Origin: Candidatus Aenigmatarchaeota archaeon
GTDB taxonomy: Archaea; Aenigmatarchaeota; Aenigmatarchaeia; GW2011-AR5; GCA-2688965
Direction: 5' to 3'
Assembly (NCBI GenBank): GCA_043813745.1
Contig: JBDRKV010000068.1
Span: 1-39,255 of the forward strand
Length of the DNA stretch: 39,255 bases
Part shown: positions 12,251-33,867 of the stretch, piece by piece
How positions within the stretch are numbered: the first letter of the stretch is position 1
Layout: each line of letters opens with the position of its first letter
Made by a program: the position numbers and the translations under genes
Notes under the pieces: generated by a model
What the model saw: only the letters and a program-made list of their open reading frames with translations
Databases searched by the model: none
Told to the model about the DNA's origin: nothing

Positions 12251-14506
12251 ATGGTTTGTGATTATGCATACAATGAAGAGAAGAATGAAGTAAGGATAAA
12301 CTGTCTGAACTGCATCTACGGTTCTAGTATAGAGGACTTTGAAATATGCATGTCAAGGACAATAGATAAACTTTTGGAGATAAAGAAGCCTGCCACCATA
12401 GTCTTTGCAAAAGAGCGCGAATACGAGTATGGCCAGGATGATGCAGCAATGCTGCTTGAAATCGGCAATGCTGTCGAGCGCAGCCGCAATGTGCATCGCG
12501 TGATGTCCTTGAAGAATCTGAGCACGCCTGAATGCGACCATCAGGTCCCGGAGCGCATGGTATTCATACAGCGAATCCTGAAAGAAATAAAAATGGATCC
12601 CATAGTTGCTTACCGCCGCGTGCTGAGAGAGGTCCGGCATATACGCATGCTCGTGGAAAAGATGGATGATGTTGAATACAAATGCCATGATAATTTCGTA
12701 AAGAATTCATTGCTGCCCATAAAAACCGAGCTGGAAGCAACGCGTATAATACAACTCGCAATACCAACGCTCACGCAGATAAAAGGCCGGGAATTTTACA
12801 GAAAGCTGTTCCACCCGACCATAAGGCCGAACTTCATGTACACGCGATACATGGCAATGCCGCCCATGGGCGCAGAGCCTGTTGACTCGTATTCATTAGG
12901 CGACACGGATGTTGAAATATATTCATTGCCTGGAAAATTAAGAAAATTGTATCACATGATTCCGCCTGAATTCCGATTAACAGACGAAGAGTATATTATA
13001 TTGGACAAGGCGCGCAGCTATCTCATAGAACACCAGCCAAAGGAGAATGAGCTCACTGATCCTGACAAGATAAGGGAAAACATATACAACATCGGGCTTG
13101 ACATGCTGCGAGAGCTCGCGAGCGAGCGCGTTACTGAAGAACGACTGCGCATGCTTGCCGACATACTGACGAGATATACGGCCGGCTTGGGTATGCTTGA
13201 GTTGCTGCTCAAAGACAGTAAAATCCAGGACATCTCTATAAATTCTCCAATCGGGCAGATGCCTGCGTTCATATTTCATTCAGATTACATGGAATGCGAG
13301 ACGAACATAGTGCCGAGCATGGAAGATGCAAACAGCTGGGCAACAAAGTTCAAGTTGCGCTCAGGACGTCCGCTGGACGAGGCTAACCCTGTGCTGGACA
13401 CAGAAATATATGTTGCCGGAGGCAGCGCGCGTGTTGCAGCAATAACGCGAACGCTATCGCCGGAAGGACTTGGGTTTGCTTTCAGGCGACATCGTGACAA
13501 GCCGTGGACATATCCTCTGTTTATTCAAAATAACATGATTGATGCGTTCTCTGCTGGATTGATGTGGTTCCTTGTGGACGGTTCGAGGACGCTCTTGATA
13601 GCAGGCACGCGTTCGTCCGGTAAAACTGCATTCTTGGGTGCAACCATGATTCAGATAATGCCGAAGATAAGGATGATTACAGTAGAAGATACGCTGGAAC
13701 TTCCGGTTGCTAAAATGCGCGAGCTTGGTTACGATATTGAAAGATTGAAGAGTCGTTCAGTGATAACGCGCGTTGAAACCGAAGTGCCTGCAGACGAGGC
13801 ATTGCGCACGGCGTTGCGTCTGGGCGACTCTGCATTGATAATCGGCGAAGTCCGCTCGGTCGAAGCAAAGGCATTATACGAGGCAATGAGAATAGGTGCA
13901 CTGGCTAACGTTGTTGCTGGAACAATACACGGCGAGTCTGCTTACGGCGTATTCGATAGGGTAGTAAATGATTTAGGCGTGCCTCCGACTTCATTCAAAG
14001 CCACGGATGCGATTTTGATATGCAACATGCTGCGTTCGTCGGACGGCTTACGATCGTTTAGGCGCTGCGTTGAGTTGACCGAGGTCAGAAAACACTGGAA
14101 GAATGATCCTGTAGATGAAGGCGGATTTGTAAATCTATTGCAATATTCATCCAAAGAAGACAAGCTGAAGCCGACAGAAACATTGCTTGTCGGTGAATCC
14201 ACCATACTGAATAGCATTGCGGAGCGCGTGCGCGAATGGAGAGGGCAGTGGGAAAGCGTGTGGAACAATATAAAACTGCGCGAAAAAATTTTGCAAACGA
14301 TTGTTGATGTTGCCAACAAAACCGGCCGTCAAGAGTTGATGGAAGCCGATGTCATAATGCAGTCGAACAATCAGTTCCATCTCATATCAGGAAAGGTCAA
14401 GGACGAAGTGGGCTCGTTGGATAGCGAGATGATATACGACCAGTGGCTGAAATGGCTGAAGGATTACGCGGGCGGGAAAGAGGATATACTGTGGGAAAAA
14501 ATCTAA
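12251..14506 (+). CDS. Type IV pilus/type II-IV secretion assembly ATPase (VirB11/PilB/ArlI family)
   Basis: Walker A GTRSSGKT, Asp box ITVEDTLEL, Walker B ALIIGEVR, GTIHG; long N-terminal extension with CLNC. Confidence 0.95.
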   Translation: MVCDYAYNEEKNEVRINCLNCIYGSSIEDFEICMSRTIDKLLEIKKPATIVFAKEREYEYGQDDAAMLLEIGNAVERSRNVHRVMSLKNLSTPECDHQVPERMVFIQRILKEIKMDPIVAYRRVLREVRHIRMLVEKMDDVEYKCHDNFVKNSLLPIKTELEATRIIQLAIPTLTQIKGREFYRKLFHPTIRPNFMYTRYMAMPPMGAEPVDSYSLGDTDVEIYSLPGKLRKLYHMIPPEFRLTDEEYIILDKARSYLIEHQPKENELTDPDKIRENIYNIGLDMLRELASERVTEERLRMLADILTRYTAGLGMLELLLKDSKIQDISINSPIGQMPAFIFHSDYMECETNIVPSMEDANSWATKFKLRSGRPLDEANPVLDTEIYVAGGSARVAAITRTLSPEGLGFAFRRHRDKPWTYPLFIQNNMIDAFSAGLMWFLVDGSRTLLIAGTRSSGKTAFLGATMIQIMPKIRMITVEDTLELPVAKMRELGYDIERLKSRSVITRVETEVPADEALRTALRLGDSALIIGEVRSVEAKALYEAMRIGALANVVAGTIHGESAYGVFDRVVNDLGVPPTSFKATDAILICNMLRSSDGLRSFRRCVELTEVRKHWKNDPVDEGGFVNLLQYSSKEDKLKPTETLLVGESTILNSIAERVREWRGQWESVWNNIKLREKILQTIVDVANKTGRQELMEADVIMQSNNQFHLISGKVKDEVGSLDSEMIYDQWLKWLKDYAGGKEDILWEKI

Positions 14507-14516
14507 GGTGTGAAAA

Positions 14517-16541
14517 GTGTTTGATATCATAAAGAAAAAAAAGCCTATCGTGGTTGCGAAGAAGATAAAGGGAACGATAACAAGCCGCGAGTACAAAATA
14601 TACATGGGTGAGGAGCAGTGGGCCGGACGGACCGCGACGCTGTATGAAAAACTGGCCAAGAAGAGCCGCAAGATAATCGAGATCAAGCCAAACAAGGACC
14701 TGGCACTGAAACTACAGAAGGCGATTGACTTTGCACACCTGAACATGGAACCGACTGATGCGATGTCCTTTGCATTTGGCGTGGGCTTCTTCGGATCGTT
14801 GCTTTTGATATTACTCATGGTCCTTGGAGCACTTGGACTGCCGGGGCTTGATGTTACACTAGGGGTACTCGCCATAGCGATGATTGTCCCGCTTGCTTAT
14901 TTCCTAATGGTCTATCCTGTGCACCTGAAAAAAAAATTCGAGGTCAGGACAGGCTCGGAAATCGTGACCATGATACTGTACATGGCCATATACATGCGCG
15001 ATACGCCGAACATGGAGGGCGCGCTGCGTTTTGCCGCGGACAACCTCACTGGACCATTGGCTTATGAATTAAGAAAGCTGATATGGGACATCGAAATCGG
15101 GACGTTTGCTTCTGTGGATACGGCGCTGATGGACTATGCGCAGAAGTGGTCCGATAACAAGGCGTTCATGGAATCCCTGCAGGCCATGCGCGAGAGCCTG
15201 ACGCAGGTAGAAGAAAAACGCATGCGCATGCTTGATGAAGCTGTCAGCTTGATATTAAATGATACTGTTGAAAAGGCGGACAAATACGCGCGCGACCTGA
15301 AGATGCCCATAACAGTCATACACGCGTTGGGCGTTGTCCTGCCGGTGATGGGACTGGTACTCTTTCCGATGATAGCAATATTTTTGAACGTACCGCCCAT
15401 GGCACTCTTCATCGGCTACGACATAATACTGCCTGCTATACTTCTGTTCATCGTGATGAATGTCTTGCAGACTAGGCCACCGACATTTTCAAGCATAGAT
15501 GTCAGCACGAATCCGAACGCGCCGCCCCGCGGGAAATTCGCAATTTATGGAAAGACAAAGAAAAGATTTGTTTCTGCGCTTCCGTTCGGCATACTGATAG
15601 GGCTCATAATAGTAGGACTTGGCACGTACATGTTCCTCACTGTTCCCGAGGATAGTATTGAGGACACACTGATGCCATCCATAATAATCGTTGCCGGCAT
15701 TGCATCAGGGTTCGCCGTGTATTACCTTGCGTCGTCCCAACAAAACTTGAAGATAAGGAAAGATACGCGCAACATAGAGGATGAATTTCGCGAGGCGTTA
15801 TTCAGGCTGGGCAACCAGGTCTCTAGCGGCAGGCCAATAGAGAGTGCACTGGAACGGAGCCTTGACCAGATGGGCGAGCTTTCCATAAGGGAGATGTTCA
15901 AGAAGGCAATGGACAATATAAAAAATCTTGGAATGACTTTCGAAGCATCGTTCTTTGACAAAACATATGGCGCCATAAGATACTATCCTTCAAAACTTGT
16001 TAATTCTGTGATGAAAACTGTTGTGCGCTCCACGCAAAGAGGTCTTGCGACTGCATCCCAGGCCATGATATCCATCTCGTTGTTCCTGAGACGCGTGCAC
16101 GACACGCAGACAAAGGTGGAGGAAAACATGTCTGACGTGACATCATCCATGCAGTTCCAGGCATATTTCCTTTCTCCCATGGTCGCGGGCATTGTTGTCA
16201 CAATGGCCATAATGGTCATACGTATAGTGAAGCAGATCGGGCCTTCGCTTACCGGCATACAGGATGTTGCTGGCGGCGCCAGCGGGCTTTTCGGATTCAT
16301 GGGCGGCATGTGGGACCAGATGCCAATAACGTCCGGCGTGTTCCAACTCATCGTGGGTATTTATATGATAGAGAGCGGAATTATATTGTCCAGGTTCGTC
16401 AACGGCATACAAAATGGAGAAGATGAAACCGGATTGCAAGATTTGACTGGCAGCGTGCTGCTCATAGGAACAATAGTATATATTGTCTCGCTGTTGATAA
16501 CGCTGCTTATATTCGGCCCGATGACCGAGGGCATTGTGTGA
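14517..16541 (+). CDS. Pilus membrane platform protein (TadB/TadC/ArlJ-like, two GspF-type domains)
   Basis: Follows the ATPase; alternating TM clusters and cytoplasmic domains (PNMEGALRFAA...LAYELRK; LGNQVSSGRPIESAL). Confidence 0.88.
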   Translation: MFDIIKKKKPIVVAKKIKGTITSREYKIYMGEEQWAGRTATLYEKLAKKSRKIIEIKPNKDLALKLQKAIDFAHLNMEPTDAMSFAFGVGFFGSLLLILLMVLGALGLPGLDVTLGVLAIAMIVPLAYFLMVYPVHLKKKFEVRTGSEIVTMILYMAIYMRDTPNMEGALRFAADNLTGPLAYELRKLIWDIEIGTFASVDTALMDYAQKWSDNKAFMESLQAMRESLTQVEEKRMRMLDEAVSLILNDTVEKADKYARDLKMPITVIHALGVVLPVMGLVLFPMIAIFLNVPPMALFIGYDIILPAILLFIVMNVLQTRPPTFSSIDVSTNPNAPPRGKFAIYGKTKKRFVSALPFGILIGLIIVGLGTYMFLTVPEDSIEDTLMPSIIIVAGIASGFAVYYLASSQQNLKIRKDTRNIEDEFREALFRLGNQVSSGRPIESALERSLDQMGELSIREMFKKAMDNIKNLGMTFEASFFDKTYGAIRYYPSKLVNSVMKTVVRSTQRGLATASQAMISISLFLRRVHDTQTKVEENMSDVTSSMQFQAYFLSPMVAGIVVTMAIMVIRIVKQIGPSLTGIQDVAGGASGLFGFMGGMWDQMPITSGVFQLIVGIYMIESGIILSRFVNGIQNGEDETGLQDLTGSVLLIGTIVYIVSLLITLLIFGPMTEGIV

Positions 16542-16545
16542 TCAT

Positions 16546-16680
16546 ATGGAACTGACCGAAATGATGCCGAAGGCGTGGATAGCCGTCCTGATAACGGTAA
16601 TCATCTTCATGGTGCTGATGCTGATTGCATCAAACGCGATTAGCGCGGCTACAGAACAGTTTGGAGTTGTTGGTGTATGA
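16546..16680 (+). CDS. 44-aa single-TM pilin-like microprotein
   Basis: MELTEMMPKAWIAVLITVIIFMVLMLIASNAISAATEQFGVVGV*; fills the gap after the platform gene; ATGA overlap with next ORF. Confidence 0.7.
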   Translation: MELTEMMPKAWIAVLITVIIFMVLMLIASNAISAATEQFGVVGV

Positions 16681-16853
16681 AAGGTAAAAAAGGTATTTTG
16701 ACGACCATGCCCGCATTACTCGTGACTATTATTTTTGTAGCACTTGTCGCGCTAATCATTGTTACTGTTGTTCTGCCTGCACTAAGCGGCGCAAAAACCG
16801 CGGGCGGAAATATTTTTGCTAAATTTGCTAGCTTGATTTTCGGTGGCTCCTGA
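16677..16853 (+). CDS. 58-aa pilin-like protein with class III signal peptide
   Basis: MKGKKG|ILTTMPALLVTIIFVALVALIIVTVVLPALSGAKTAGGNIFAKFASLIFGGS*; ATGA and TGATG coupling on either side. Confidence 0.8.
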   Translation: MKGKKGILTTMPALLVTIIFVALVALIIVTVVLPALSGAKTAGGNIFAKFASLIFGGS

Positions 16854-17956
16854 TGCAAAATGAAATGCTTATCACAATAGTAATCCTGGCAGTAACTGTT
16901 ATTGTAATCATTCTAATGACCAACAGCAGCGGGCTTTTTCAGGAGGAAAATAAGCTGACTGACAAGAAAACGCCGCCATACGTGAAGCTCGTTGACGCTG
17001 AATTGAAAATAAGCTGGGAGGGTCCTTTTTCTGACGAGAAATCAAAATCCGTTGTTGAGGAACTGCTTGGGCTGAAGCGCCAGTGGTACAGGTACCATGT
17101 TGAAATCAACAACATGAAATTAAGATACGAAGGCACGAAACTGCCGATGCACGACATACATCCTGTGCTCGAGGTAAAGGGCACAGAGTTAAAGGACGTT
17201 GACGTGAACGGCGATAGCGATTCGTTCAAGCTGACGCAGGAGATGCTAAGGGACGGCATATTCACGATAGATAACATAAAGCTGCGCAGCGACGTGGACA
17301 GCTTTATCGCGCCGCAGACCATTGAGGCCGATAATAATATCATAATAAAAGAAAATGTAATGGTGAGCTTCTGGGAAGAGACCGAGCGATTCATCCAGAA
17401 CTACAAGGAGAATAGCCAAATCAATTTATTGAGCATTGGCTGCCCGGACTTTGATGATTGCGACTGGCTGGGCGCGATATCCGTGCCGTCCATAGGCTAC
17501 AGGTACACAGCGGGCTCAAGCTCGCTCACCGGAAAAATAGAATTCACATCACCGGTCTCCACTGACATAAAGCAAGGAGATGAAACATCCCTGCGCTTCA
17601 AAATAATAAACACCGGCAGCCTGGACTGGACGCGGAATGACAACACATTGAGCGACGACAAGATAGCCGTGTTCATACGCGGGTGCGCAAATGGCGTTAT
17701 TGCTAAAAAAATATTCAAGCTAGAAGACACCACTATCGTGAGAAAGGGCGAGTCAATACTGTCGGATAATTTCCTTGGCGATACAAAATGTAAAATACCC
17801 TCGAACTATAATGATATATTGGTAATGGTAATCGCCAACTGTAATTTAAATAATGATCTGGGAGGCGACATACCGTGCAGCAACACTGCCGGAGCAGACG
17901 ATGATCCTACAAAGGCTTTTGCCATAGACCAGATGTTTCCATTCAGGACCGAATAG
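16853..17956 (+). CDS. Minor pilin-like/exported protein, N-terminal TM, Ig-like C-terminal region
   Basis: MQNEMLITIVILAVTVIVIILM; C-terminal IKQGDETSLRFKIINTGSLDW resembles CARDB/Ig strands. Confidence 0.7.
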   Translation: MQNEMLITIVILAVTVIVIILMTNSSGLFQEENKLTDKKTPPYVKLVDAELKISWEGPFSDEKSKSVVEELLGLKRQWYRYHVEINNMKLRYEGTKLPMHDIHPVLEVKGTELKDVDVNGDSDSFKLTQEMLRDGIFTIDNIKLRSDVDSFIAPQTIEADNNIIIKENVMVSFWEETERFIQNYKENSQINLLSIGCPDFDDCDWLGAISVPSIGYRYTAGSSSLTGKIEFTSPVSTDIKQGDETSLRFKIINTGSLDWTRNDNTLSDDKIAVFIRGCANGVIAKKIFKLEDTTIVRKGESILSDNFLGDTKCKIPSNYNDILVMVIANCNLNNDLGGDIPCSNTAGADDDPTKAFAIDQMFPFRTE

Positions 17957-17968: not shown

Positions 17969-19654
17969 ATGCAAAATCTTATTATGGTGATGGTTGTTGC
18001 CATGGGTATAACCCTGCTAGTGGGCGGGATGATAATATACTCGTATGGCGGAAATATCAGGGAAGAATATGGAGACATAGAAGGACTGCTCGGCATGAGC
18101 CTTGTCAAGCTGAAGTCAGCGGACATAACTCTGGACTGTGCTTCTGGAAGTAATTATCAGCTGAAGATAAAAAATTTCCTTGTGAATTATTACGGCCCGG
18201 ACAGGACGAAGATGGATGTAAAGATAAGAATTTTCGGCAGCGAAGAAACCGTACTCAGCAACAACCAGGTAAACCTGCCCATGCGAAGTCCCATCACACA
18301 GCTGGCGAGCGTGTCTGTCACGCTTCCGACAGAGGAAAAGATAAACAAAGACAAGGGAGTTGTGTTAACGCTGATGTATTGGATGGACGAGCTGGAAACA
18401 GGCTGCTACCATCAAAATCGCGGGCTGACGCTGCTGGACATCGCGAGCAAGTGCCCGGGATCGTATCTTGGCAGCGACGACGTGTTCATACCCAAGGAGA
18501 ATATAAAATTCTCTAGCCCGGATAATCAAGAGTGCGCGACTGACTGGGTATTTAGAAATCCTGTGCCAGACACATATGGAAAAGAAAAAGAAGTTGACCT
18601 TGGCGATGCCTACGATTATTTGATTTTAAGTGATAAACATTATATCCACAAGGTTCGCATAAAACTAGTTGACGTTGAAAGAACAGATAGTAGCTTGGTC
18701 ATGAAGATATCTGGAACGTATTATTACAAATATGATAATGAGCAGGAACAAAGTGCTGAGCTGGATTGCAATATTGCGATGCCTGGTTTAATCGGAACTG
18801 TGTCATTGAATGCCGGCTCGGTGATTGCCTGCGATGTGCAGGGTATTAGAAATGATCCAAGTTTATATGAGGATGTACGAATAAAAGTGCTGTCGGTTAG
18901 CGAGAACCGGGCGATTGACATAGATGTCATACCTACATTTTCGACAGGCAAAAAATTTGGTTGGGACATTGACGGTGCTTCGGCTGGATTCAAGGCTTTT
19001 CCTGTAACAATCGCTGACGAAGATCTGGGAGATATTGTAATAGGTTTGAATGAAGTTTTGATTTCTCCTGCACAAAATTATATCTTCAAATTTGAGATTT
19101 ACAAAAGAGTCAGGCTTTATGAAACCGCTAACGACTATCAAAATAGGCGCCTTATAAAAATCGGGGAGGCTGGTACTATAACACTTTCAGAGAATGGTAT
19201 TGCATATCTCGGTGACCGAAGCAAAGTTGGCGATAGTGTTGAAGATGGCATGGCTTATGTTTATACAATAAAACTGGATGATATCAACACAGAGAATAGG
19301 ATGTTGCGGCTTTCGCTCGACATGAACCCAAAGATCAAGGAGCTGCAAAAAGGCAGCGCGAGATTCTGCTGGGACAGGAATGCCGCGGGCTTTGACAAAT
19401 GCGATTTGGGCATGGGAGACTGTGATGAATTGTTTGGTGATGAATGTGACACGAGCAAATCTTATAGTTATGGCACTGGTCTCAGCGGAGCATTGGATTG
19501 CAGGGACGTTGATGCTGCTGTTGATGTATGCTGTCCTAGCGGCGCAAGCGATGAACAGTGCAGGGCAGCGTACATGGCGTGGAGCCGTAGCGGCGATGAA
19601 CAGAGGATAAGAAACGCGCTTATCGCCGGCGTTGATCCGCCTCCCCAGAACTGA
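17969..19654 (+). CDS. Minor pilin-like/adhesin with C-terminal Cys-rich GxGDCD module
   Basis: Likely start MQNLIMVMVVAMGITLLVGG at 17969 (GTGATG RBS); tail KCDLGMGDCDELFGDEC...LDC...DVCC. Confidence 0.7.
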   Translation: MQNLIMVMVVAMGITLLVGGMIIYSYGGNIREEYGDIEGLLGMSLVKLKSADITLDCASGSNYQLKIKNFLVNYYGPDRTKMDVKIRIFGSEETVLSNNQVNLPMRSPITQLASVSVTLPTEEKINKDKGVVLTLMYWMDELETGCYHQNRGLTLLDIASKCPGSYLGSDDVFIPKENIKFSSPDNQECATDWVFRNPVPDTYGKEKEVDLGDAYDYLILSDKHYIHKVRIKLVDVERTDSSLVMKISGTYYYKYDNEQEQSAELDCNIAMPGLIGTVSLNAGSVIACDVQGIRNDPSLYEDVRIKVLSVSENRAIDIDVIPTFSTGKKFGWDIDGASAGFKAFPVTIADEDLGDIVIGLNEVLISPAQNYIFKFEIYKRVRLYETANDYQNRRLIKIGEAGTITLSENGIAYLGDRSKVGDSVEDGMAYVYTIKLDDINTENRMLRLSLDMNPKIKELQKGSARFCWDRNAAGFDKCDLGMGDCDELFGDECDTSKSYSYGTGLSGALDCRDVDAAVDVCCPSGASDEQCRAAYMAWSRSGDEQRIRNALIAGVDPPPQN

Positions 19655-19728: not shown

Positions 19729-19881
19729 ATGCAGGTTTCTGGAACGATGATGCTCATAGTCGTGTTGATGGCTTTCATAGTCGTCGTCGGGGTCATGCTG
19801 CTTGTATCGCCCAGGGCCTTTATTTCCAATGCAATAAATGGCATTGGCTCATTTTTCGCTATTTTAGGAGGTGGCGTGTGA
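19729..19881 (+). CDS. 50-aa pilin-like microprotein
   Basis: MQVSGTMMLIVVLMAFIVVVGVMLLVSPRAFISNAINGIGSFFAILGGGV*; GGAG RBS; TTTATATA at about 19661. Confidence 0.72.
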   Translation: MQVSGTMMLIVVLMAFIVVVGVMLLVSPRAFISNAINGIGSFFAILGGGV

Positions 19882-27395: not shown

Positions 27396-27770
27396 TTATC
27401 TTGGTGTTCTGGCCGACCTGTCTGCTGTCGGGGTTGTTCGCGAGCTGCTAGTACTGCCGCAGCATACTGAGCGACACTCAGCTGCGGTTATGTAGCCGAA
27501 AACTTTCTCGCATGCGACCATGATGCCGTCAGCCTGGCCGTTTCCATCTGGGTCATAACCATCCAGTTTTATTTTTATATTATTAAAATCTAATGTCTGG
27601 CATCCGCGCTGTGTTGCCTGCCCACACATGGTGTTCCAGGCTGCGCGATCGCCTATGCCGCCGGCTGGACTCAGCCAACCCGTGGTAAAGAATGCGGCTG
27701 CGGCAAGCAGAACTATGACAGCCAATGCAATTATCACGATCATTTCTACTGGCATGGATATTGCTTTCAT
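27396..27770 (-). CDS. Archaeal type IV pilin (paralog of 26819-27319)
   Basis: MKA|ISMPVEMIVIIALAVIVLLAAAAFF; shared IGD.AA...C....GC...ACEKV.....A.C...CC pattern. Confidence 0.82.
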   Translation of the reverse strand: MKAISMPVEMIVIIALAVIVLLAAAAFFTTGWLSPAGGIGDRAAWNTMCGQATQRGCQTLDFNNIKIKLDGYDPDGNGQADGIMVACEKVFGYITAAECRSVCCGSTSSSRTTPTADRSARTPR

Positions 27771-27888: not shown

Positions 27889-30800
27889 ATGCAGAATAAA
27901 CTAGTAGTTGTTGCTATTATTTCTATGTTGCTGCTTATTAGCGGTGCTTATGCGCTTGATTTGAACAATGTGCTTTATAAAGCAACTGGAAAGGCGTCAC
28001 TGATAACCGGACATCTCTATTATGAAGAAAACGACGACTGCATAGACAACCAATACTATGAGGAATGTGTTGGCGATGACTTATACTATTGCGATGATGA
28101 TTATTATGTGTCAGTTGTATACGGCGGATGCGCTTCTTCTGGCGTTGATTGCAACGGTATAACAGACGCGGGTTTATGCGATAACGATGGTGAAGGATAC
28201 CAGTGGTGTGATTATGGGACGCTTAGACATCACGACTGCGGTGCAGGGACTACATGCCAGAGAGATAGTACTGGGTGGTCTGATTGTGTTAGTACAGGCG
28301 GAGGAGGCGGAATGAGCGAGCCTGGCATCACAAGAACTCCGGGCTGCGGAAATATAGATGGTTATGGATTTTGTTATTCTGCTGCTATATTGAAATATTG
28401 TGATGAAGGACTTGATGAGATTGTGACTGAGGAGTGCGCGGTATCTAGGGGCACGGGTTATGTTTGCTATAAAAATGAACAGGGCACAATGGCGGAGTGC
28501 GTTAAACAACAAAGCGGCATGGACTGCGCTGGAATAACCTATGAAGGAACATGCGAAGCTGACACGCTGAAATGGTGCGATGATAGCTCATATCCTGGGG
28601 AGCTTGTCATTGAAAATTGCGCATCTGATGAAAGGGTTTGTAATATTTACGGCGGTCTTGCCAATTGTGTTCTGGAGTATGGCACAGGCACCTGCTATAG
28701 AGACGAGGAATGCGATACTGGATTGTCCTGCTCGCCGATGTATGATAGTGTTAATTATGGCGGCGTGTGCTGCAGCCCTGGTGAAGAGGTTTATTATTTA
28801 CAAGGCAGCTATTACTGCAACATGCCGAGCTATGATGACATTCCTGACTATTCTGCGTCGCGCGGGGATATATGCTTCACTGACATTGATTGCGTCGATG
28901 ACCTTGTGTGCAAGACGGATTTGACATACACAGATGAAAGCGCATGCTGCCAGTCAAATGAGGAGCCTGTCATGGGCTCTTGCAGAACCATACCATATTA
29001 TACAGCAGGGCCGCGACCTTTTGCAGATAATTATTGCACGCGTAAAATCAATGAGCTGAACCAAAAGTGCGCTTGGGGCGAAGGCGACTGCGACAGCAAC
29101 AGCCAATGCCAAAACAATCTTATTTGCGTGGATGCGCCCAGCTCATCCATTACAGGCATTGAGGGTGCGGACTTGTGCTGTAATAGGAATGAGATTGTCA
29201 GCAAAGGGAAATGTCTGAGCACGAATACTTTCTATCCAGCGAATTACGACGGCGGGACTGACGCTGTTCCTGATGTTGCGGGAGGAGACAGTGACACAAT
29301 GTCGCTTGGTCCGTATTCTAACGGCGATCCATGCACGCAAACTGATGCTAATATGCGCGGGAAGTGCGAGAACAATAATGTCATCTATTGCAATACGAAT
29401 GACCAGTGGAACAATTATGATTGCGGAAGCGGTGGCTGCGGATTTGATTTTGTTAATGATTACTATGACTGCGTTGGTGGAACAGGCGGCGATACAGGTG
29501 GAACAGGCGAAGGCATGGACCCATTTACGTACGAAGGTGGTGACTGCGACATGCTCAATGACGATAATATGTACGGGACTTGCGATGGTAATACGGCGAT
29601 ATACTGCTATGTTGGCTCGTGGGTTGCGGATGCGTGCACAGGGGGTAAGAGCTGCGGTTATGCTGATTATGGCGCGGATTGTTTGAGTGGCGGGACTGAT
29701 AAGCATGGAATCTCATGCCCTAGCGTAGCAGCATGTGGCACGGACCAAGGTCTTGTTTGCAAAGTCAATGATAATCTTGATTCACGATGTTGTTACAGTA
29801 ATGAGGAAGTAAGCAGCGATGGTACGAAATGTGTTCCAAGTTCTGGCGGCGGTACAACAGGCAGCACTGGCACTTTCAATGGGCAGACTGTTTATGTGGG
29901 TGCTGAATGCGATCCTGGTGATGACGCGCAGTGGGATGGGGTATGCAATGGCAACAATAAATTAGTATATTGTTCTGCTGGTGCTGAATGGGCTGTGGAA
30001 ACATGTTCTGGCGGTAAAACATGTACTGTTACTAACGGCTATGCGGATTGCACATTACCAAGTTCTGGTGACGAGACTAATGCTTGCGAAGATACTGGCG
30101 GGGTTTGCTCAACGCCAGCCATGTGCTCAAGTTGGAGCGGCACTCCTGTACCGTCTCTAAAGAGCGCCTGCAACGTTGCCAATGCTTATGGAAATGACGT
30201 TTGTTGTGGGCTACCGGTTGCAGGCGGATACGAGGAAGGCGATGACTGCACGGCAACTCCGGATTACAGGGCATGCGATAATAATGTTTTGGAATGGTGC
30301 GGATCGTCAAAAACAATTCTGATTCAGGATTGTGGGAGCGGCGGATGCGGAATGGGAAGCGATGGTGTCTATGACTGCCTCGCCCTTCCAGACGCGATTG
30401 ACATGGATCCCGGACCATATACTGACGGTAGTTCATGTGATTCTACCAATCATGCCAATGTTGCTGGAAAGTGCGAGGGTAATAATGTAATCTATTGCAA
30501 TGAAGATAATAGGTGGACTAATTATGATTGCGGGGCTAGTGGATGTGAATTAGGATCGAATGGGTATTATGATTGCATTCCAAGCGGGACAGGCGGTGGA
30601 GATGAAGGCATGGATACATTTACGTACGAAGGTGATGATTGCGACATGCTCAATGACGATAATATGTACGGAACGTGTGATGGCAACACAGCGATATACT
30701 GTTATGCTGGCTCGTGGGTTGCGGATGAATGCGTAGGGGGAACGAGCTGTGATTATGCTGATTACGGCGCGGATTGTTTGGCTGGCGGGGCAACAACCAC

Positions 30801-33800
30801 AGTTAGTGGCGGTGGCACGATGTCGCCAGGACCATATGTTGACGGCGGAACATGCACACAAACTCAGGCAAACGTATATGGAAAGTGCGAGAATAACAAA
30901 GCAATATACTGTGGGGCTAATGAGTGGGTCGTAGATGACTGTATGGCTCTTGGTGGGAAAAGCTGCGGTTATTCTACTTATGGCGCGGTTTGCAAAGCTG
31001 TTAGCGGAACAACAGGTTGTGATTCGTGCGGCAGCACTTCTGGCAGCTGCGCACAGGACGAATGCATTGGACTCGGGAGCACGTGCGTGTATAATAACGA
31101 TACAAATACTTGCGTGTCTGGCGGGATAACAGGCGTCCAAGGAACTTTCAATGGACAGACTATTTATGCAGGCACTGAATGCGATCCTGGTGATGACGCG
31201 CAGTGGGATGGGGTATGCAATGGCAACAATAAATTAGTATATTGTTCTGCTGGTGCTGAATGGGCCGTGGAATCGTGCTCTGGTGGTAAAACCTGTACTG
31301 TTACTGATGGCTATGCGGATTGTACATTACCGAGTTCTGGTTGCGGGGATATAAAATTCGCCGGCAAATGCGATGCAGATGGCAATGGATATAATTGGTG
31401 TTATGAAGAAACTGATACGCTTCAGCCTGAGAGTTGTAATAGTGACGAGGTTTGTGAACAGAATCCCGGCGAACTTGCTACATGCGTGCCAAAGACGCAA
31501 ACTACAGGCTGCGGTTCTATAACTGTTGCTGGTAAATGCGATGATGGTAATAAAGGATACCAGTGGTGCCAGACGAATACGATAAAACATGAAGTTTGTG
31601 ATGGAGATACAACCTGCCAGTCAATGACTTCAGGGTGGGTTGATTGTCTTCCATCCAGTGGAACAACAGGCGGAACAGGCGATGAAATTCCGCCTGACGA
31701 GACGTGTGATTCCCTTGGTGGGTATTGTTGGGACTTTTACGACTATTGTTTGGATGACCAGGATACTGACATGTTCTTATGCGGCGGCATAGATTCGGGC
31801 TACATGTGTTGCTACCCGAAAGGCGATGCCATAGCGCTGCCTGCAGGCGGCAGTGCGATATACTTTTCAAGCTCATGCACACTTGGAATACAAGCGCAGG
31901 AAACGGCATGCAAAAACTGTGTGACTGGGACCAGTAAAAAATGGTGCGTTGAGGTAGGACAGTGTAAAAATATGAATGAAAATTGTCCTGCGCCATCTAC
32001 TGGAAGCACAACACCGGGCCAGACTATCGGCAATGCACAGGTTGGTGGGCCGTGCGGAGCTGTGCCTAGCAGTGGCACATGCATCGGAAACGTTCTGGAA
32101 TGGTGTGGCGTTGATAATACACTGCGTATCGTTAACTGCGCTGCGCAGAATGTCAATAAACTGTGCGGACCTGATGCCAGTAGTGGCCAGCACAAATGCT
32201 ATGATTCGGCTGCTACGGCTGCGAGCAATGTTTATAATACAAACCTTGGCAGTTGTGATGACAAATGCGGCTCGTTCCTGAACCCGTGCGACAAGGTCGA
32301 GTGCCTGGCGCTCACGGATGAAAGCAACAGGCAATGCCAGTTCCTGCCAGGCAGCATGTGGGGAGACACGTGGGGAACGTGCTTCTCTGTATCATCTGGG
32401 AATGCCGCGACTGTAGGCTTGCACTCCACTGGAAAGGTTGGTACTGTCCTAGGACGATGCCAGCAGGTGTGCAATGCGCTTGGATTTGGGGGTTGTTCAA
32501 GGAAAACATGCGAGAATACATTTGATGAATATGGCAGGCCATGTGTGTGTGATACGTGCCCGATACTTGGTAGTAATTATTGTAGTACGTGCAAATCTGG
32601 CAGTACTCCACAATCTGTTAGCAATAGCATGCAGCAGGCTGCAACTGGGATTAATGTGCCGCTCAATCAAAGGGTATTGATAGACCAAGCCAGTTGGCTC
32701 AATGCCGAGCAGAAAGCGAAATGCAAGAGCTATGCAGGCGATACTATATGCGACGGCCCAACAGGCGCGGGCGGGACAGGTATAAACTGTGTGCCAGGAA
32801 CCACTGTCAGCAACTCATTGCCAGACTGCCGTGAATGCGAAACAAAGTATGTAGACTCACGCACAGGAACAGAAAAAATAAGCTATGACTGCTTGAATCC
32901 TTGCAACATGGTAAACAGGCTAAATAATGATTACTTGTGCGACAGCGTGCAGCAGGAATGCGACGTGCTGAAGAACAATGGATTAATAATCAGCAGCGTG
33001 CTGTCGTTCTATAGCGCGCAATATTCCATAGCAGGTTGCGCTGAATCGCGATACCCAACCAATGGCTTTAGTGCACTGGACCCTTGCGAGATGTTCAACC
33101 AGGCGTCTGACAAATATTGCGACGACACGCAGGCGAACTGCGCTGCGCATTCAACCAAGATATATAGAGCAGGCATATCAGTGCCTGAATGCAGGGAAAC
33201 CAGCGACAAGATACCAACATACAAATCAGATCCTAACGGGAACTGGCAAAAGTTGTCTACTTGTCTTCAAGCAAACAATAATAATTTCAGTCAATGCTTA
33301 GACGCACAGGGAAAGATAAAGGGCGCGACTGCTATTCCACAAGGTGGAAACGCGCAGGTGGCTTGCGCTCAGGTTAATTGCGCGCCAGGCTGCCAAGGCG
33401 GAACACAGCAGGTTGCAAAGACGTGCGCAAGCGGGGTTTGCTGCGAATGTCCTGCTGGCAAAACACTTGACAGTTCTGGGAATTGTGTTGATTCAAGTAG
33501 TAGCAACACGGGTAGTTCTGGGACGTGTGCAAGTAATGGCGGCACATGCATACTTAATACTTTATCATGCAGTAATGGTACATATCATACTGAGACCGGA
33601 TATTCGTGTTCAGTCGGACAAAGCTGCTGTGTATGCGGTTCTGGCAAAACACTTGACAGTACTGGGAATTGTGTTACTCAGGGGAGTTCGAACGCTCCTA
33701 GCGGCGTAGATGCTGATGCATGTTATAAATTGAATGGTTTTTGCGTGCCTGGTTCTTATGACTGCATGATAGTTCTTACAAATAAAAAAGTTATAGAAGA

Positions 33801-33867
33801 TACCAGCAATCCAGCATATATACTTTGCGCGAGCTATGGAAAGGTGTGCTGCGTGCCTTCTTCCTAG
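27889..33867 (+). CDS. Giant (~1992 aa) secreted Cys/Gly/Asp-rich multi-module surface protein
   Basis: Sec-type signal MQNKLVVVAIISMLLLISGAYA at 27889; about 14 six-Cys repeats plus other Cys modules; no C-terminal TM. Confidence 0.85.
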   Translation: MQNKLVVVAIISMLLLISGAYALDLNNVLYKATGKASLITGHLYYEENDDCIDNQYYEECVGDDLYYCDDDYYVSVVYGGCASSGVDCNGITDAGLCDNDGEGYQWCDYGTLRHHDCGAGTTCQRDSTGWSDCVSTGGGGGMSEPGITRTPGCGNIDGYGFCYSAAILKYCDEGLDEIVTEECAVSRGTGYVCYKNEQGTMAECVKQQSGMDCAGITYEGTCEADTLKWCDDSSYPGELVIENCASDERVCNIYGGLANCVLEYGTGTCYRDEECDTGLSCSPMYDSVNYGGVCCSPGEEVYYLQGSYYCNMPSYDDIPDYSASRGDICFTDIDCVDDLVCKTDLTYTDESACCQSNEEPVMGSCRTIPYYTAGPRPFADNYCTRKINELNQKCAWGEGDCDSNSQCQNNLICVDAPSSSITGIEGADLCCNRNEIVSKGKCLSTNTFYPANYDGGTDAVPDVAGGDSDTMSLGPYSNGDPCTQTDANMRGKCENNNVIYCNTNDQWNNYDCGSGGCGFDFVNDYYDCVGGTGGDTGGTGEGMDPFTYEGGDCDMLNDDNMYGTCDGNTAIYCYVGSWVADACTGGKSCGYADYGADCLSGGTDKHGISCPSVAACGTDQGLVCKVNDNLDSRCCYSNEEVSSDGTKCVPSSGGGTTGSTGTFNGQTVYVGAECDPGDDAQWDGVCNGNNKLVYCSAGAEWAVETCSGGKTCTVTNGYADCTLPSSGDETNACEDTGGVCSTPAMCSSWSGTPVPSLKSACNVANAYGNDVCCGLPVAGGYEEGDDCTATPDYRACDNNVLEWCGSSKTILIQDCGSGGCGMGSDGVYDCLALPDAIDMDPGPYTDGSSCDSTNHANVAGKCEGNNVIYCNEDNRWTNYDCGASGCELGSNGYYDCIPSGTGGGDEGMDTFTYEGDDCDMLNDDNMYGTCDGNTAIYCYAGSWVADECVGGTSCDYADYGADCLAGGATTTVSGGGTMSPGPYVDGGTCTQTQANVYGKCENNKAIYCGANEWVVDDCMALGGKSCGYSTYGAVCKAVSGTTGCDSCGSTSGSCAQDECIGLGSTCVYNNDTNTCVSGGITGVQGTFNGQTIYAGTECDPGDDAQWDGVCNGNNKLVYCSAGAEWAVESCSGGKTCTVTDGYADCTLPSSGCGDIKFAGKCDADGNGYNWCYEETDTLQPESCNSDEVCEQNPGELATCVPKTQTTGCGSITVAGKCDDGNKGYQWCQTNTIKHEVCDGDTTCQSMTSGWVDCLPSSGTTGGTGDEIPPDETCDSLGGYCWDFYDYCLDDQDTDMFLCGGIDSGYMCCYPKGDAIALPAGGSAIYFSSSCTLGIQAQETACKNCVTGTSKKWCVEVGQCKNMNENCPAPSTGSTTPGQTIGNAQVGGPCGAVPSSGTCIGNVLEWCGVDNTLRIVNCAAQNVNKLCGPDASSGQHKCYDSAATAASNVYNTNLGSCDDKCGSFLNPCDKVECLALTDESNRQCQFLPGSMWGDTWGTCFSVSSGNAATVGLHSTGKVGTVLGRCQQVCNALGFGGCSRKTCENTFDEYGRPCVCDTCPILGSNYCSTCKSGSTPQSVSNSMQQAATGINVPLNQRVLIDQASWLNAEQKAKCKSYAGDTICDGPTGAGGTGINCVPGTTVSNSLPDCRECETKYVDSRTGTEKISYDCLNPCNMVNRLNNDYLCDSVQQECDVLKNNGLIISSVLSFYSAQYSIAGCAESRYPTNGFSALDPCEMFNQASDKYCDDTQANCAAHSTKIYRAGISVPECRETSDKIPTYKSDPNGNWQKLSTCLQANNNNFSQCLDAQGKIKGATAIPQGGNAQVACAQVNCAPGCQGGTQQVAKTCASGVCCECPAGKTLDSSGNCVDSSSSNTGSSGTCASNGGTCILNTLSCSNGTYHTETGYSCSVGQSCCVCGSGKTLDSTGNCVTQGSSNAPSGVDADACYKLNGFCVPGSYDCMIVLTNKKVIEDTSNPAYILCASYGKVCCVPSS
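29509..30780 (+). repeat. Intragenic 177-bp direct repeat (29509-29685 and 30604-30780)
   Basis: Both encode EGMD.FTYEG.DCDMLNDDNMYGTCDGNTAIYCY.GSWVAD.C.GG.SC.YADYGADCL. Confidence 0.9.
29869..31341 (+). repeat. Intragenic 201-bp direct repeat (29869-30069 and 31141-31341) with a 91-bp identical core
   Basis: 29903-29993 is identical to 31175-31265; both encode ECDPGDDAQWDGVCNGNNKLVYCSAGAEWAVE. Confidence 0.92.
33455..33675 (+). repeat. 35-bp direct repeat (33455-33489 and 33641-33675), one mismatch
   Basis: CTGGCAAAACACTTGACAGTwCTGGGAATTGTGTT, encoding GKTLDS(S/T)GNCV. Confidence 0.85.

What the first reader, a model, noticed from the sequence alone, without database searches (positions are those of the whole stretch)
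12251..33867. Elaborate DPANN-type IV pilus/adhesin system with ~14 pilin-like genes and a shared disulfide-module toolkit
Seen: ATPase and platform followed by 11 closely packed or overlapping N-terminally hydrophobic ORFs (40-850 aa), three stand-alone paralogous pilins and a 6-kb secreted Cys-rich gene. The same Cys module types recur in different genes. No archaellin, ArlH or prepilin peptidase is recognisable in the window. Known: DPANN archaea are often episymbionts and type IV pili mediate adhesion. Inference: a modular host-recognition and attachment apparatus whose tips are diversified by module shuffling. This is the strongest candidate for an undescribed system here.
Basis: partly seen in the sequence, partly recalled or inferred. 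Interest (0 to 1): 0.8.

Follow-up and report, generated by a model that had tools for sequence, protein, structure and literature searches.

The report
Aenigmarchaeota pilus operon, swappable cysteine-rich heads
This is a real type IV pilus-like gene cluster of a tiny DPANN archaeon; its motor is of a kind already described, but the ten unannotated genes behind it form a conserved scaffold set onto which different cysteine-rich or enzymatic heads are grafted in different lineages.

Summary
Window 12251-26398 is one tight + strand operon. It has a FlaI/GspE-type ATPase, a fused TadC/FlaJ-type platform and 11 ORFs with hydrophobic N-termini. Two more small pilins lie on the - strand, followed by a 6-kb cysteine-rich secreted gene. 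I count 13 such ORFs; 7 pass a strict class III (prepilin) signal motif.

The genome is Aenigmarchaeota-like (0.66 Mb). It holds a prepilin peptidase on another contig, and no archaellin was found.

The ATPase has orthologs in 34 of 40 relatives at 47-74% identity. Six downstream families (p58, p436, p145, p286, p285, p850), two small cysteine pilin families and two upstream coiled-coil genes are syntenic across the order.

Orthologous scaffolds carry different inserts:
- the 6-Cys "module A" occurs in 0 to 4 copies in p285 orthologs;
- p850 orthologs carry a Peptidase_M23 domain in 3 of 8 relatives, where the window copy has cysteine modules instead.

The 2014-aa protein is an orphan, and its link to the machine is unproven.

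The motor plus coiled-coil locus type is already in print (Hamm et al. 2024), and DPANN "dark-matter pilin" islands were noted in 2019. Verdict: a lineage-specific variant of a known kind. Adhesion is inferred, not shown.

The parts
8564..9742 (+). Two small polytopic membrane proteins (199 and 188 aa). They are candidate accessory genes and their link to the system is weak.
   Evidence: Translations are, with no Pfam family. A row of four comparable small membrane-protein ORFs stands at the same place upstream of the ATPase in L019. Homology of these two was not tested.
9791..10847 (+). Two tandem paralogous small membrane proteins (175 and 161 aa, the 'u161 family'), often linked to the ATPase.
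   Evidence: The two are 42% identical. By comparing positions, a family member lies on the same contig within about 5 kb of the ATPase ortholog in 18 of the 34 relatives that have the ortholog. No Pfam family was found.
10933..11604 (-). Coiled-coil protein u223 (223 aa): a short N-terminal domain plus a C-terminal coiled coil. It is a candidate cytoplasmic accessory protein of the CCP type.
   Evidence: Only weak coiled-coil Pfam hits were found. It is syntenic upstream of the ATPase in 6 of 12 relatives' loci and in L019.
11653..12132 (-). Coiled-coil protein u159 (159 aa), divergent from the ATPase. It is a candidate cytoplasmic accessory protein of the CCP type.
   Evidence: It is syntenic in 8 of 12 relatives' loci. 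It is 32% identical (E 2e-21) to the gene at the same position in L020, whose ATPase is only 56% identical. No match was found to the Micrarchaeota neighbour.
12251..14506 (+). Assembly ATPase (751 aa) of the FlaI/GspE2/TadA superfamily, with a long N-terminal extension. Walker A is at residues 452-459, the Asp box at 476-481, Walker B at 527-533 and the His box near 556-562.
   Evidence: Family matches are, and the motifs were read. Orthologs at 47-74% identity occur in 34 of 40 relatives.
14517..16541 (+). Single fused platform protein (674 aa, TadC/FlaJ/PilC type, two T2SSF-like halves).
   Evidence: Evidence is. Orthologs at 41-49% identity occur in 12 of 12 relatives' loci.
16546..16680 (+). 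p48, a tiny single-helix protein with a loose K-A site. It is specific to this lineage in sequence.
   Evidence: The iterative HMM search found no homolog. Tiny hydrophobic ORFs stand at the same position in relatives.
16677..16853 (+). p58, a tiny 'headless' class III signal protein (mature length about 52 aa). It is a candidate filament subunit of the Flp/Epd type.
   Evidence: It passes the strict motif. The iterative HMM search found five further matches in the relatives' loci at E <= 1e-3, two of them strong (E 1.6e-25 and 3.8e-33).
16853..17956 (+). p367, a protein anchored by an N-terminal helix with no K/R-G/A site. Its sequence evolves fast.
   Evidence: Positional equivalents of 290-366 aa occur in relatives.
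17969..19654 (+). p565, a protein anchored by an N-terminal helix, with a Cys-rich C-terminus that includes one module A-like copy (19400-19534).
19729..19881 (+). p50, a tiny single-helix protein.
   Evidence: Tiny ORFs stand at the same position in relatives.
20008..21318 (+). p436, the signature class III protein of the system. The model shows a long N-terminal helix plus a large alpha/beta domain. Five Cys are invariant and six more are nearly invariant. A GDPxYVLYYExFP motif is conserved.
   Evidence: The family has 155 representatives at E <= 1e-3 among 1.84 billion proteins. The AlphaFold2 model has pLDDT 84.6 and pTM 0.87. No structural match was found. The family was found in 96 of 301 genomes sampled from the phylum.
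21323..21760 (+). p145, a conserved small pilin-like protein. The window copy lacks the K-G site that most orthologs have.
   Evidence: Nine family members were found counting the window copy. The alignment is and the motif test.
21735..22595 (+). p286, a conserved scaffold protein. Three of 8 orthologs carry an extra Cys-rich insert that the window copy lacks.
22579..23436 (+). p285 (probable start at 22645), a class III protein whose conserved scaffold carries one clear module A cassette (23116-23217) and a degenerate second one.
   Evidence: The alignment shows cassette copy number of 0 in two orthologs (L040, L036), two in four, no clear copy in one (L026) and extra copies in L030.
23433..25985 (+). 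p850, a class III modular protein. It has a scaffold (about residues 1-100 and 408-500), two module A copies (23751-23849, 23889-23987), a Thr/Ser-rich linker, two PSI-like motifs (25098-25160, 25269-25328) and a Cys-rich C-terminal domain.
   Evidence: Only the scaffold is shared with orthologs. Orthologs of 243-643 aa carry Peptidase_M23 in 3 of 8.
26021..26398 (+). p125, a small class III pilin of type 1. Six Cys are invariant across the family, and most members have eight.
   Evidence: Orthologs occur in 8 of 12 relatives' loci.
26819..27319 (-). p166, a small class III pilin of type 2 with a Gly/Ser linker and a module A graft at its C-terminus (26828-26938).
   Evidence: The AlphaFold2 model has pLDDT 75.8, with an N-terminal helix and an all-helical head.
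27396..27770 (-). p124, a small class III pilin of type 2 with six conserved Cys.
   Evidence: The family was found in 66 of 70 genomes of the order, with 1-7 listed copies each.
27889..33867 (+). p2014, a giant secreted Cys-rich orphan with a Sec-type signal and no anchor seen. It holds six module C copies (29359-31323), 4-5 module A copies (30085-30207, 31705-31812, 33526-33630, 33721-33852; weaker at 33364-33444) and one PSI-like motif (31909-31965). Its membership of the machine is unproven.
   Evidence: Internal DNA repeats of 222 and 206 nt are 89% and 85% identical. No relative was found.

Best explanation
The locus is a lineage-specific type IV filament (pilus-like) system of an Aenigmarchaeota-type DPANN archaeon.

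Shown:
- It has a secretion ATPase and a fused TadC/FlaJ-type platform.
- A prepilin peptidase is encoded elsewhere in the genome.
- Seven to eight proteins in the locus carry prepilin-type (class III) signals.
- The gene order is conserved across the order.

Inferred mechanism:
- The peptidase trims the class III proteins.
- The ATPase and platform lift them out of the membrane.
- The fibre is built from the tiny headless p58 and/or the small disulfide-locked pilins (p125, p124, p166).
- The five conserved genes p436-p145-p286-p285-p850 form a priming or tip complex.
- The last members of that block act as scaffolds for exchangeable heads. Here the heads are cysteine-knot modules, a Thr-rich stalk and PSI-like motifs. 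In some relatives the head is a Peptidase_M23 domain.
- These heads would contact another cell.

Other parts:
- The two upstream coiled-coil proteins and the small membrane proteins are probable accessory parts.
- The 2014-aa secreted protein draws on the same module types but is a strain-specific addition whose physical link to the fibre is not shown.
For: Core machine: ATPase, platform; Peptidase_A24 on contig C33. The operon is tight. The class III motif is passed strictly by 7 of 13 ORFs.

Conservation:
- ATPase orthologs occur in 34 of 40 relatives.
- The platform occurs in 12 of 12 fetched loci. p436 and p125 each occur in 8 of 12.
- By iterative HMM, p145, p286 and p850 have 9 members each, p285 has 9 plus one doubtful hit, and p58 has 6, counting the window copy each time.
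- The type-2 pilin family occurs in 66 of 70 genomes of the order.

Structure: the p436 model is confident (pLDDT 84.6) and begins with a helix of about 50 residues, as pilins do. The p166 model has the N-terminal helix.

Exchangeable heads:
- Module A is absent from two p285 orthologs, duplicated in four, unclear in one and multiplied in L030.
- Module A is grafted on a type-1 pilin in one relative (L026) but on a type-2 pilin here.
- M23 occurs in 3 of 8 p850 orthologs, and only the scaffold is shared with the window copy.
- Module A also occurs in two other Cys-rich ORFs of this genome.

Accessory genes: u159 in 8 of 12 loci, u223 in 6 of 12, u159 in L020, and the u161 family near the ATPase in 18 of 34 relatives.

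Literature: Hamm et al. 2024 describe such ATPase, TadC and coiled-coil loci in cluster-2 DPANN and report that several proteins of the Nanohaloarchaeum loci were detected by proteomics (passages).
Against: - No filament, cleavage or expression has been observed for this organism.
- Five of the 13 ORFs (p367, p565, p50, p145, p286) lack a K/R-G/A site here.
- The head of the small pilin is predicted as all-helical, and neither it nor p436 resembles any solved pilin. These searches cannot prove a new fold.
- Several p436 orthologs contain internal hydrophobic stretches that look like extra membrane segments (read). That is odd for a subunit that must leave the membrane.
- p48, p367, p565 and p50 have no detectable homologs even in close relatives.
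- p2014 has a Sec-type signal, no anchor and no relatives.
- An HMM of module A built from the window's own copies finds only those copies in 70 genomes. Module identity across genomes therefore rests on the Cys pattern and on alignment A8.
Confidence: 0.65

Rival explanations
1. A surface-display or pseudopilus system rather than a long pilus. The ATPase and platform would insert and organise class III signal and helix-anchored proteins in the cell envelope, as the Sulfolobus bindosome system does for its binding proteins or as a type II secretion pseudopilus does. The large Cys-rich proteins would stay cell-bound as a contact patch.
For: - Most products are large (285-850 aa) and are not typical fibre subunits.
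- Five of 13 lack a cleavage motif.
- Some p436 orthologs carry internal hydrophobic segments.
- No solved pilin fold was recovered.
- The BasE model gives a weak hit to the ATPase (49 bits against a cut-off of 1000).
Against: - Small pilins of 100-125 aa are conserved in 66 of 70 genomes of the order, with 1-7 copies each, and a headless p58 is present. Together with a dedicated motor, these are what a fibre needs.
- No binding-protein or ABC-transporter genes lie in the locus.
- The BasE hit is far below its cut-off.
Confidence: 0.2
2. A reduced archaellum (a swimming organelle). Aenigmarchaeota genomes have been annotated in print with 'FlaG, FlaI, FlaJ and adjacent archaellum homologs' (PMC8407114, passage).
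For: - Public sources name several orthologs of the ATPase FlaI.
- The best NCBIfam hit is the FlaI model (E 1.5e-36).
- The platform is a single FlaJ-like fused protein.
Against: - The FlaI equivalog scores 126 bits against a cut-off of 550.
- Archaellin PF01917 was not found in the genome, which is 69% complete.
- None of the downstream genes hits an archaellum family in Pfam or NCBIfam.
- The closest solved relative is the non-archaellar GspE of 2OAP (110 bits against 70 for FlaI).
Confidence: 0.03
3. On the boundary only: the 6-kb gene (27889-33867) is not part of the machine. It would be an independent, strain-specific secreted Cys-rich protein inserted between the pilin genes and FEN1, sharing only a genome-wide stock of Cys modules.
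For: - It has no relative in the other 69 genomes of the order, the same-genus genome included, or in the 5.8-billion-protein search at near length.
- In relatives, FEN1 follows the small pilins directly.
- It has a Sec-type rather than class III signal.
- Module A also occurs in ORFs on contigs C27 and C64, away from this locus.
Against: - It lies directly beside the pilin genes.
- It shares module A and the PSI-like motif with p285, p850 and p166.
- The same-genus assembly is only 68% complete.
Confidence: 0.5

Closest known systems
Conserved type IV pilus-like loci with coiled-coil proteins (CCPs) of cluster-2 DPANN archaea (Hamm et al. 2024, Nat Commun, PMC11291902; passages read)
   Same: - An adjacent CpaF/FlaI-type ATPase and TadC-type platform with coiled-coil protein genes beside them, in a lineage (Aenigmarchaeota) that the paper names.
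- This genome also has a second locus on contig C9 with a thermosome, a coiled-coil protein, recognisable pilin-like DUF7266/7287/7289 proteins, an ATPase and two platform genes. That fits the paper's Locus 1.
- By exclusion the window would be its Locus 2. This is my inference.
   Different: - In the passages I saw, the paper lists filament proteins (FlaF, PilA) for Locus 1 only.
- The 11-gene block behind the platform, the two Cys-pilin families, module A and the head swapping are not mentioned there.
- I could not compare u159 and u223 with the paper's CCP profiles. Its Figure 4 and supplementary datasets were not available to me and may show more.
Epd pilus of Methanococcus maripaludis (archaeal T4F 'system 1'; as summarised in PMC13705601 section 11)
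   Same: - A multi-gene operon read as one unit, with an ATPase, a platform, several minor pilin-like proteins needed for assembly, a main pilin without a globular head (compare p58) and adhesin-like domains on class III signal proteins.
- Its role is adhesion.
   Different: - System 1 is characterised there by two platform genes and a dedicated peptidase. The window has one fused 674-aa platform and no peptidase in the locus.
- None of the downstream families hits any Pfam or NCBIfam pilin model.
- The ATPase is 751 aa with a long N-terminal extension.
Modular type IV pilins of bacteria, such as PilB of Streptococcus sanguinis (PMC8179133; abstract start only)
   Same: A pilin module with a functional module grafted to its C-terminus. 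Compare p166 (pilin, Gly/Ser linker, module A), p850, and the M23-bearing orthologs.
   Different: The organisms are archaeal, the families are unrelated and the grafted modules are tiny Cys knots or M23 rather than vWA or lectin modules. No function has been tested.
DPANN 'dark matter' type IV pilus islands (Makarova, Wolf and Koonin 2019, PMC6393860; passages) and Cys-rich T4P components of Thermoproteales (Makarova, Koonin and Albers 2016, PMC4858521; passages)
   Same: - An ATPase and TadC next to signal-peptide proteins with no detectable similarity, read as diverse pilins.
- Multiple conserved cysteines in nearly all components of some archaeal T4P loci.
- Large signal-peptide 'adhesin or minor pilin' genes in such loci.
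   Different: Those papers give a general statement. Figure 2A is not held, so I cannot tell whether it shows this locus type. No family-level description of p436 through p850, the two pilin families or the cassette variation was seen.

Membership tests
Archaeal type IV filament (T4P-like) system | Secretion ATPase of the VirB11/T2SSE superfamily | tested here: met
   PF00437 scores 49.8 bits against a cut-off of 24.9. 2OAP gives E 9.2e-31 and FlaI gives E 1.2e-18. The Walker A, Asp, Walker B and His boxes are intact.
Archaeal type IV filament (T4P-like) system | Polytopic platform protein with T2SSF domains (TadC/FlaJ/PilC) | tested here: met
   The window protein scores 24.2 bits against 25.2, with two stretches, so it is just under the cut-off. 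Orthologs at 41-49% identity pass the cut-off in 6 of 8 tested, with one below and one without a hit.
Archaeal type IV filament (T4P-like) system | Class III signal (prepilin) peptidase in the genome | tested here: met
   There is one Peptidase_A24 match on contig C33 (29.3 bits against 26.5; 26.7 bits plus a weak Arc_PepC hit). It is not in the window.
Archaeal type IV filament (T4P-like) system | Filament subunits with a class III signal peptide followed by a hydrophobic helix | tested here: met
   Seven of 13 ORFs pass strictly and one more passes loosely. The rule itself is recalled from FlaFind and was not run as that program. The K-G/A site is conserved in alignments A2, A3 and A5.
Archaeal type IV filament (T4P-like) system | Pilin fold of the subunits (N-terminal helix packed on a globular head as in solved pilins) | tested here: inconclusive
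   The N-terminal helices are predicted. The heads match no solved structure: Foldseek gave no hit at E <= 0.001, and VIA gave a best Z of 3.6 for p166 and none at Z >= 2 for p436.
Archaellum | Archaellin (PF01917) genes | tested here: not met
   There was no match in the genome, which is 69% complete. The control found the family in 4 archaeal model genomes.
Archaellum | ArlI/FlaI equivalog-level ATPase | tested here: not met
   NF058587 scores 126.2 bits against a cut-off of 550.
Archaellum | ArlH, ArlF/G and ArlCDE/X accessory proteins | not tested
   No dedicated search was run. No ORF of the locus hit such a family in the Pfam or NCBIfam scans.
Epd pilus / T4F system 1 | Two separate platform genes | tested here: not met
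   The window has one fused 674-aa platform. The two-gene form occurs in this genome's other loci on C9 and C3. The definition is taken from PMC13705601 section 11.
Epd pilus / T4F system 1 | Main pilin without a globular head | tested here: inconclusive
   p58 (58 aa, strict class III motif) fits by size. No homology to the Epd pilin was tested because no reference sequence was available to me.
Cluster-2 DPANN T4P-like loci with CCPs (Hamm et al. 2024) | ATPase and TadC adjacent, with coiled-coil protein genes beside them | tested here: met
   The ATPase and platform are 10 nt apart. u159 and u223 give only coiled-coil-type weak hits and are syntenic in 8 and 6 of 12 relatives' loci.
Cluster-2 DPANN T4P-like loci with CCPs (Hamm et al. 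2024) | Homology of the coiled-coil proteins to the published CCP profiles | not testable with these tools
   The profiles and datasets are in supplements and an outside repository that I could not open.
ATPase clade in the Makarova 2016 / T4F 2026 classification (systems 1, 2, 4A-I) | Placement of the ATPase in a tree with reference ATPases | not testable with these tools
   I could not obtain named reference sequences as usable sequence. I only know that 2OAP scores higher than FlaI and that this genome's other T4F ATPases are 27-28% identical to the window's.
Beta-defensin-like six-cysteine knot (resemblance of module A) | Six Cys spaced roughly C-x5-C-x5-C-x12-C-x5-CC, and the fold that goes with that spacing | tested here: inconclusive
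   The spacing is read. The likeness to defensin spacing is recalled. The module part of the p166 model has low confidence (pLDDT 48-77). A defensin chimera appeared in Foldseek only at E 7.4 over 23 columns, which is not significant.

The most novel reading that the evidence does not exclude
The conserved five-gene block p436-p145-p286-p285-p850 builds the tip of an Aenigmarchaeota contact organelle, and its last subunits are scaffolds for swappable effector heads. The head is a peptidoglycan-type M23 peptidase in some lineages and cysteine-knot or PSI-like binding modules in this one. On this reading the head repertoire decides which cells, possibly including bacteria, each lineage can grip or breach. 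The small, all-helical, triple-disulfide pilins would be a new structural class of type IV pilin.
Probability: 0.25. Interest if true: 0.8.

Novelty: new variant of a known kind. Interest (0 to 1): 0.5.

Why it matters
DPANN archaea are thought to depend on contact with other cells, yet the parts that make contact are almost unknown. This locus gives an order-wide, syntenic parts list behind a motor type that has already been linked to DPANN-host interaction. The list comprises six conserved unannotated families, two families of small disulfide-rich pilins, two coiled-coil proteins and linked small membrane proteins.

The locus also shows that orthologous scaffolds carry different heads in different lineages. 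That makes a concrete question testable: do head swaps (Cys modules against M23 peptidase) track host or prey range? It also supplies families for which profile models could be built, so that surveys which now report DPANN pilus genes as "scattered" could find the missing pilins.

Tried and rejected
- Complex prediction of p145, p286 and p285 gave no verdict (score 0.14 against a mark of 0.32; controls were not run). It counts neither way.
- For sequencing runs, none was listed as holding 16500-26450 and no RNA holder was listed.
- The ESM Atlas gave no usable hit for p2014.
- Word-based homolog searches found only the query itself for p125 and for p2014 at near length. Longer and shorter forms were not searched.
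- p2014 was not found with this query in the other 69 genomes of the order.
- Fold searches found nothing clear. Foldseek against PDB gave no hit at E <= 0.001 for p436 or p166. VIA wide gave no chain at Z >= 2 for p436, a model of more than 400 residues, which makes the blank uninformative. It gave a best Z of 3.6 for p166. The first VIA attempt met a busy machine and was repeated after the stated wait.
- A module A HMM built from the window's nine copies found only eight of those copies at E <= 0.001 in 70 genomes. I read this as a short, over-fitted model, because alignment A8 shows the module in orthologs.
- "Unusually conserved ATPase" was rejected as a claim. The C9-type paralog is 50-64% identical over its core across the same relatives, against 47-74% for the window type.
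- Placing the ATPase in the published clades was not possible, because I had no usable reference sequences.
- No homology was found between u159 and this genome's C9 coiled-coil protein (E 0.24) or the Micrarchaeota neighbour.
- Iterative HMM searches gave no homologs for p48, p367, p565 or p50.

Full report
WHAT IS THERE

The window is contig C68 of a 0.66-Mb, 68-contig genome that is 69% complete. The nearest public contigs found with the ATPase are titled Candidatus Aenigmarchaeota or Aenigmatarchaeota at 74% and 65% identity. An unclassified archaeon follows at 56% and a Micrarchaeota contig at 41%. The flanks are archaeal housekeeping genes, read (GatD/GatE-like, FEN1-like, a radical-SAM protein). 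Alba was confirmed by Pfam at E 1.4e-15.

From 12251 to 26398 thirteen + strand genes follow one another at distances of -26 to +126 nt:
- The ATPase is 751 aa. T2SSE gives E 2.6e-13, 2OAP gives E 9.2e-31 and FlaI gives E 1.2e-18, and all NCBIfam equivalog cut-offs are missed. The catalytic boxes are intact.
- The platform is one fused 674-aa protein with two T2SSF-like halves. It scores 24.2 bits against a cut-off of 25.2. Six of 8 orthologs tested are over the cut-off.
- Then come p48, p58, p367, p565, p50, p436, p145, p286, p285, p850 and p125.

After Alba come p166 and p124 on the - strand, then the 6-kb gene p2014. None of the genes behind the platform hits Pfam or NCBIfam.

IS IT A PILUS SYSTEM?

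All four core features of an archaeal type IV filament system are present. The ATPase and platform are in the window. One Peptidase_A24 gene lies on contig C33. Proteins with prepilin-type signals are in the locus.

I applied a FlaFind-like rule, which is recalled and not the program itself. Seven of the 13 ORFs with hydrophobic N-termini pass strictly (p58, p436, p285, p850, p125, p166, p124). p48 passes loosely. Five have only an N-terminal helix. For p145 the K-G site is present in most orthologs and lost here.

No archaellin was found in the genome, and the FlaI equivalog model scores 126 bits against 550. The printed annotation of Aenigmarchaeota genomes as holding "FlaG, FlaI, FlaJ and adjacent archaellum homologs" (PMC8407114, passage) is therefore better read as pilus-like.

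The genome has two further T4F loci. One is on C9, with a thermosome, a coiled-coil protein, DUF7289/7266/7287 pilin-like proteins, an ATPase and two platform genes. The other is on C3, with an ATPase and two platform genes. A PIN-type ATPase on C13 is unrelated to pili.

CONSERVATION

An ortholog of the ATPase (47-74% identity, E <= 1e-130) is present in 34 of 40 relatives of the same order. The six without one have only paralog-level hits.

I fetched 12 loci. Within them:
- The platform is found in 12 of 12, p436 in 8, p125 in 8, p124 in 6, Alba in 5 and FEN1 in 8.
- Iterative HMM searches give 9 members each for p145, p286 and p850, counting the window copy. p285 gives 9 plus one doubtful hit, and p58 gives 6. 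p48, p367, p565 and p50 give none.
- For those four, relatives have ORFs of similar size and hydrophobic N-termini at the same positions.
- In family f7 the ATPase-platform pair stands without the block (G007, G022).

Wider distribution:
- p436 has 155 representatives at E <= 1e-3 among 1.84 billion proteins.
- It was found in 96 of 301 genomes sampled from the phylum. That includes 12 of 12 in family f13, where it forms part of proteins of about 1000 aa.
- The type-2 small pilin family is in 66 of 70 genomes of the order, with 1-7 listed copies each.

Upstream genes:
- The coiled-coil genes u159 and u223 are syntenic in 8 and 6 of the 12 loci. u159 recurs beside the 56%-identical ATPase of L020 (E 2e-21).
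- The tandem small membrane proteins of the u161 family lie within about 5 kb of the ATPase ortholog in 18 of 34 relatives (positions compared).

STRUCTURES

The p436 model, from a 95-row alignment, has pLDDT 84.6 and pTM 0.87. It shows a helix over residues 8-57 and then a large alpha/beta domain. Five cysteines are invariant and six more are nearly so.

The p166 model, from 37 rows, has pLDDT 75.8. It shows a helix over residues 10-34 and a head of three helices. The module A tail has low confidence.

Neither model has a clear match among solved structures. These blanks do not prove new folds, but the classical pilin head was not recovered.

THE CYSTEINE MODULES AND HEAD SWAPPING

Module A is about 35 aa with six Cys and ends in CC.
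- In the window it occurs in p565, p285, p850 (two copies), p166 and p2014 (4-5 copies). In this genome it also occurs in ORFs on C27 and C64.
- In the p285 family the conserved scaffold carries no module in two orthologs (L040, L036). It carries two copies in four orthologs, no clear copy in L026, extra copies in L030, and one clear plus one degenerate copy here.
- Module A is appended to a type-1 pilin in one relative (L026) and to a type-2 pilin (p166) here. The other family members lack it.

Other variable inserts:
- p286 has a Cys-rich insert in 3 of 8 orthologs.
- p850 shares only about its first 80 residues and a block near residues 408-500 with its orthologs.
- Three of 8 p850 orthologs hold a Peptidase_M23 domain (82-90 bits against a cut-off of 28.7). 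Two are short forms of 243-245 aa.
- The window copy instead has two module A copies, a Thr/Ser-rich linker, two PSI-like motifs and a Cys-rich end domain.

An HMM built from the window's own copies found only those copies in 70 genomes. I attribute that to a short, over-fitted model.

THE 6-KB GENE

- p2014 has a Sec-type signal and 9.5% Cys.
- It holds six copies of a 36-38-aa module C that no other gene here has.
- Internal DNA repeats of 222 and 206 nt are 89% and 85% identical, which points to recent internal duplication.
- It has no relatives.
- In relatives, FEN1 follows the pilins directly.
- Its membership of the machine rests only on adjacency and shared module types.

WHAT IS KNOWN

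- Hamm et al. 2024 (PMC11291902, passages) report two conserved type IV pilus-like loci with coiled-coil proteins across cluster-2 DPANN, Aenigmarchaeota included. Both have CpaF and TadC. FlaF and PilA are listed only for Locus 1, which also has GroEL and GatE nearby. Several proteins of the Nanohaloarchaeum loci were seen by proteomics. This genome's C9 locus fits Locus 1, so I infer the window is the Locus 2 type.
- Makarova, Wolf and Koonin 2019 (PMC6393860, passages) already said that DPANN islands beside the ATPase and TadC hold unrecognisable pilins. Their figure is not held.
- The 2026 T4F survey (PMC13705601; passages, sections 6, 8 and 11) finds DPANN T4F genes mostly scattered and hard to assign. 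The ordered 13-gene operon here shows that the missing pilins can sit in one locus but escape arCOG-based models.
- My searches for Aenigmarchaeota with pili or pilin terms and the passages read gave no description of the p436-p850 block, the two Cys-pilin families, module A or the M23-bearing pilin-like proteins.
- Earlier notes of this scan report look-alike loci in 45 other windows and reach similar verdicts. I used them as leads. I checked the coiled-coil linkage, the intein and the cell-wall enzyme claim myself.

VERDICT

This is a real, conserved type IV filament locus. The motor type is already described. The subunit set is undescribed as far as I could search, and there is clear evidence of exchangeable heads. 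The function (attachment or contact) is inferred. It is a new variant of a known kind, with interest 0.5.

Noticed in passing
Relatives G003, G033, G028, G025, G027 and G024; proteins P0044, P0057, P0082 and others: In six relatives the ATPase ortholog is an open frame of 1253-1380 aa that splits at about residues 476-482 of the window protein, which is the Asp box (ITVEDT). The long forms carry intein and LAGLIDADG Pfam domains (PF14890, PF14528). The window copy has no intein.
   Followed up: partly
L032:4970-6823:-, L022:14129-15973:+ and L030:4133-6061:-: The p850 orthologs of three relatives are class III signal proteins carrying a Peptidase_M23 domain (82-90 bits). That is a peptidoglycan-type endopeptidase on a pilin-like scaffold in an archaeon, and it hints at contact with bacteria.
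   Followed up: partly
Own genome, contig C9:9218-17977 (L072): A second T4F locus holds a thermosome, a 141-aa coiled-coil protein, DUF7289/DUF7266/DUF7287 pilin-like proteins, a 674-aa ATPase and two separate T2SSF platform genes. A third locus on C3 has an ATPase and two platform genes beside MoxR-type AAA and vWA genes.
   Followed up: partly
Own genome, C27:42005-43522(-) and C64:2630-4888(-): Two further Cys-rich ORFs carry module A-like copies (C27 at E 3.5e-4 with the window HMM; C64 by pattern only). The C27 ORF lies next to a small class III pilin-like gene (C27:41546-41944).
   Followed up: no
Relatives' p436 orthologs (L022:9870-11558, L024:7832-9715, L030:8764-10377, L032:9067-10647, L038:10164-11849): Several orthologs have a Gly/Ala/Val-rich hydrophobic insert of about 60-120 aa in the middle that looks like extra membrane segments. 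It is absent from the window copy and from the two shortest orthologs.
   Followed up: no
window 5583-6132 (-): Two small adjacent - strand genes (87 and 93 aa) look by eye like a toxin-antitoxin-type pair. They were not searched.
   Followed up: no
window 6230-8495 (+): Three + strand genes have no Pfam family at the thresholds used for the first two. The third (7590-8495) has a methyltransferase-like glycine motif by eye. They lie between GatD and the small membrane proteins.
   Followed up: no
L020:14284-21994: In the unclassified archaeon whose ATPase is 56% identical, the pilin-like block lies inverted on the opposite strand behind the platform. It holds Cys-rich proteins of 313-543 aa, a p286-like gene (E 6e-18) and a type-2 pilin (E 3e-26).
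   Followed up: no
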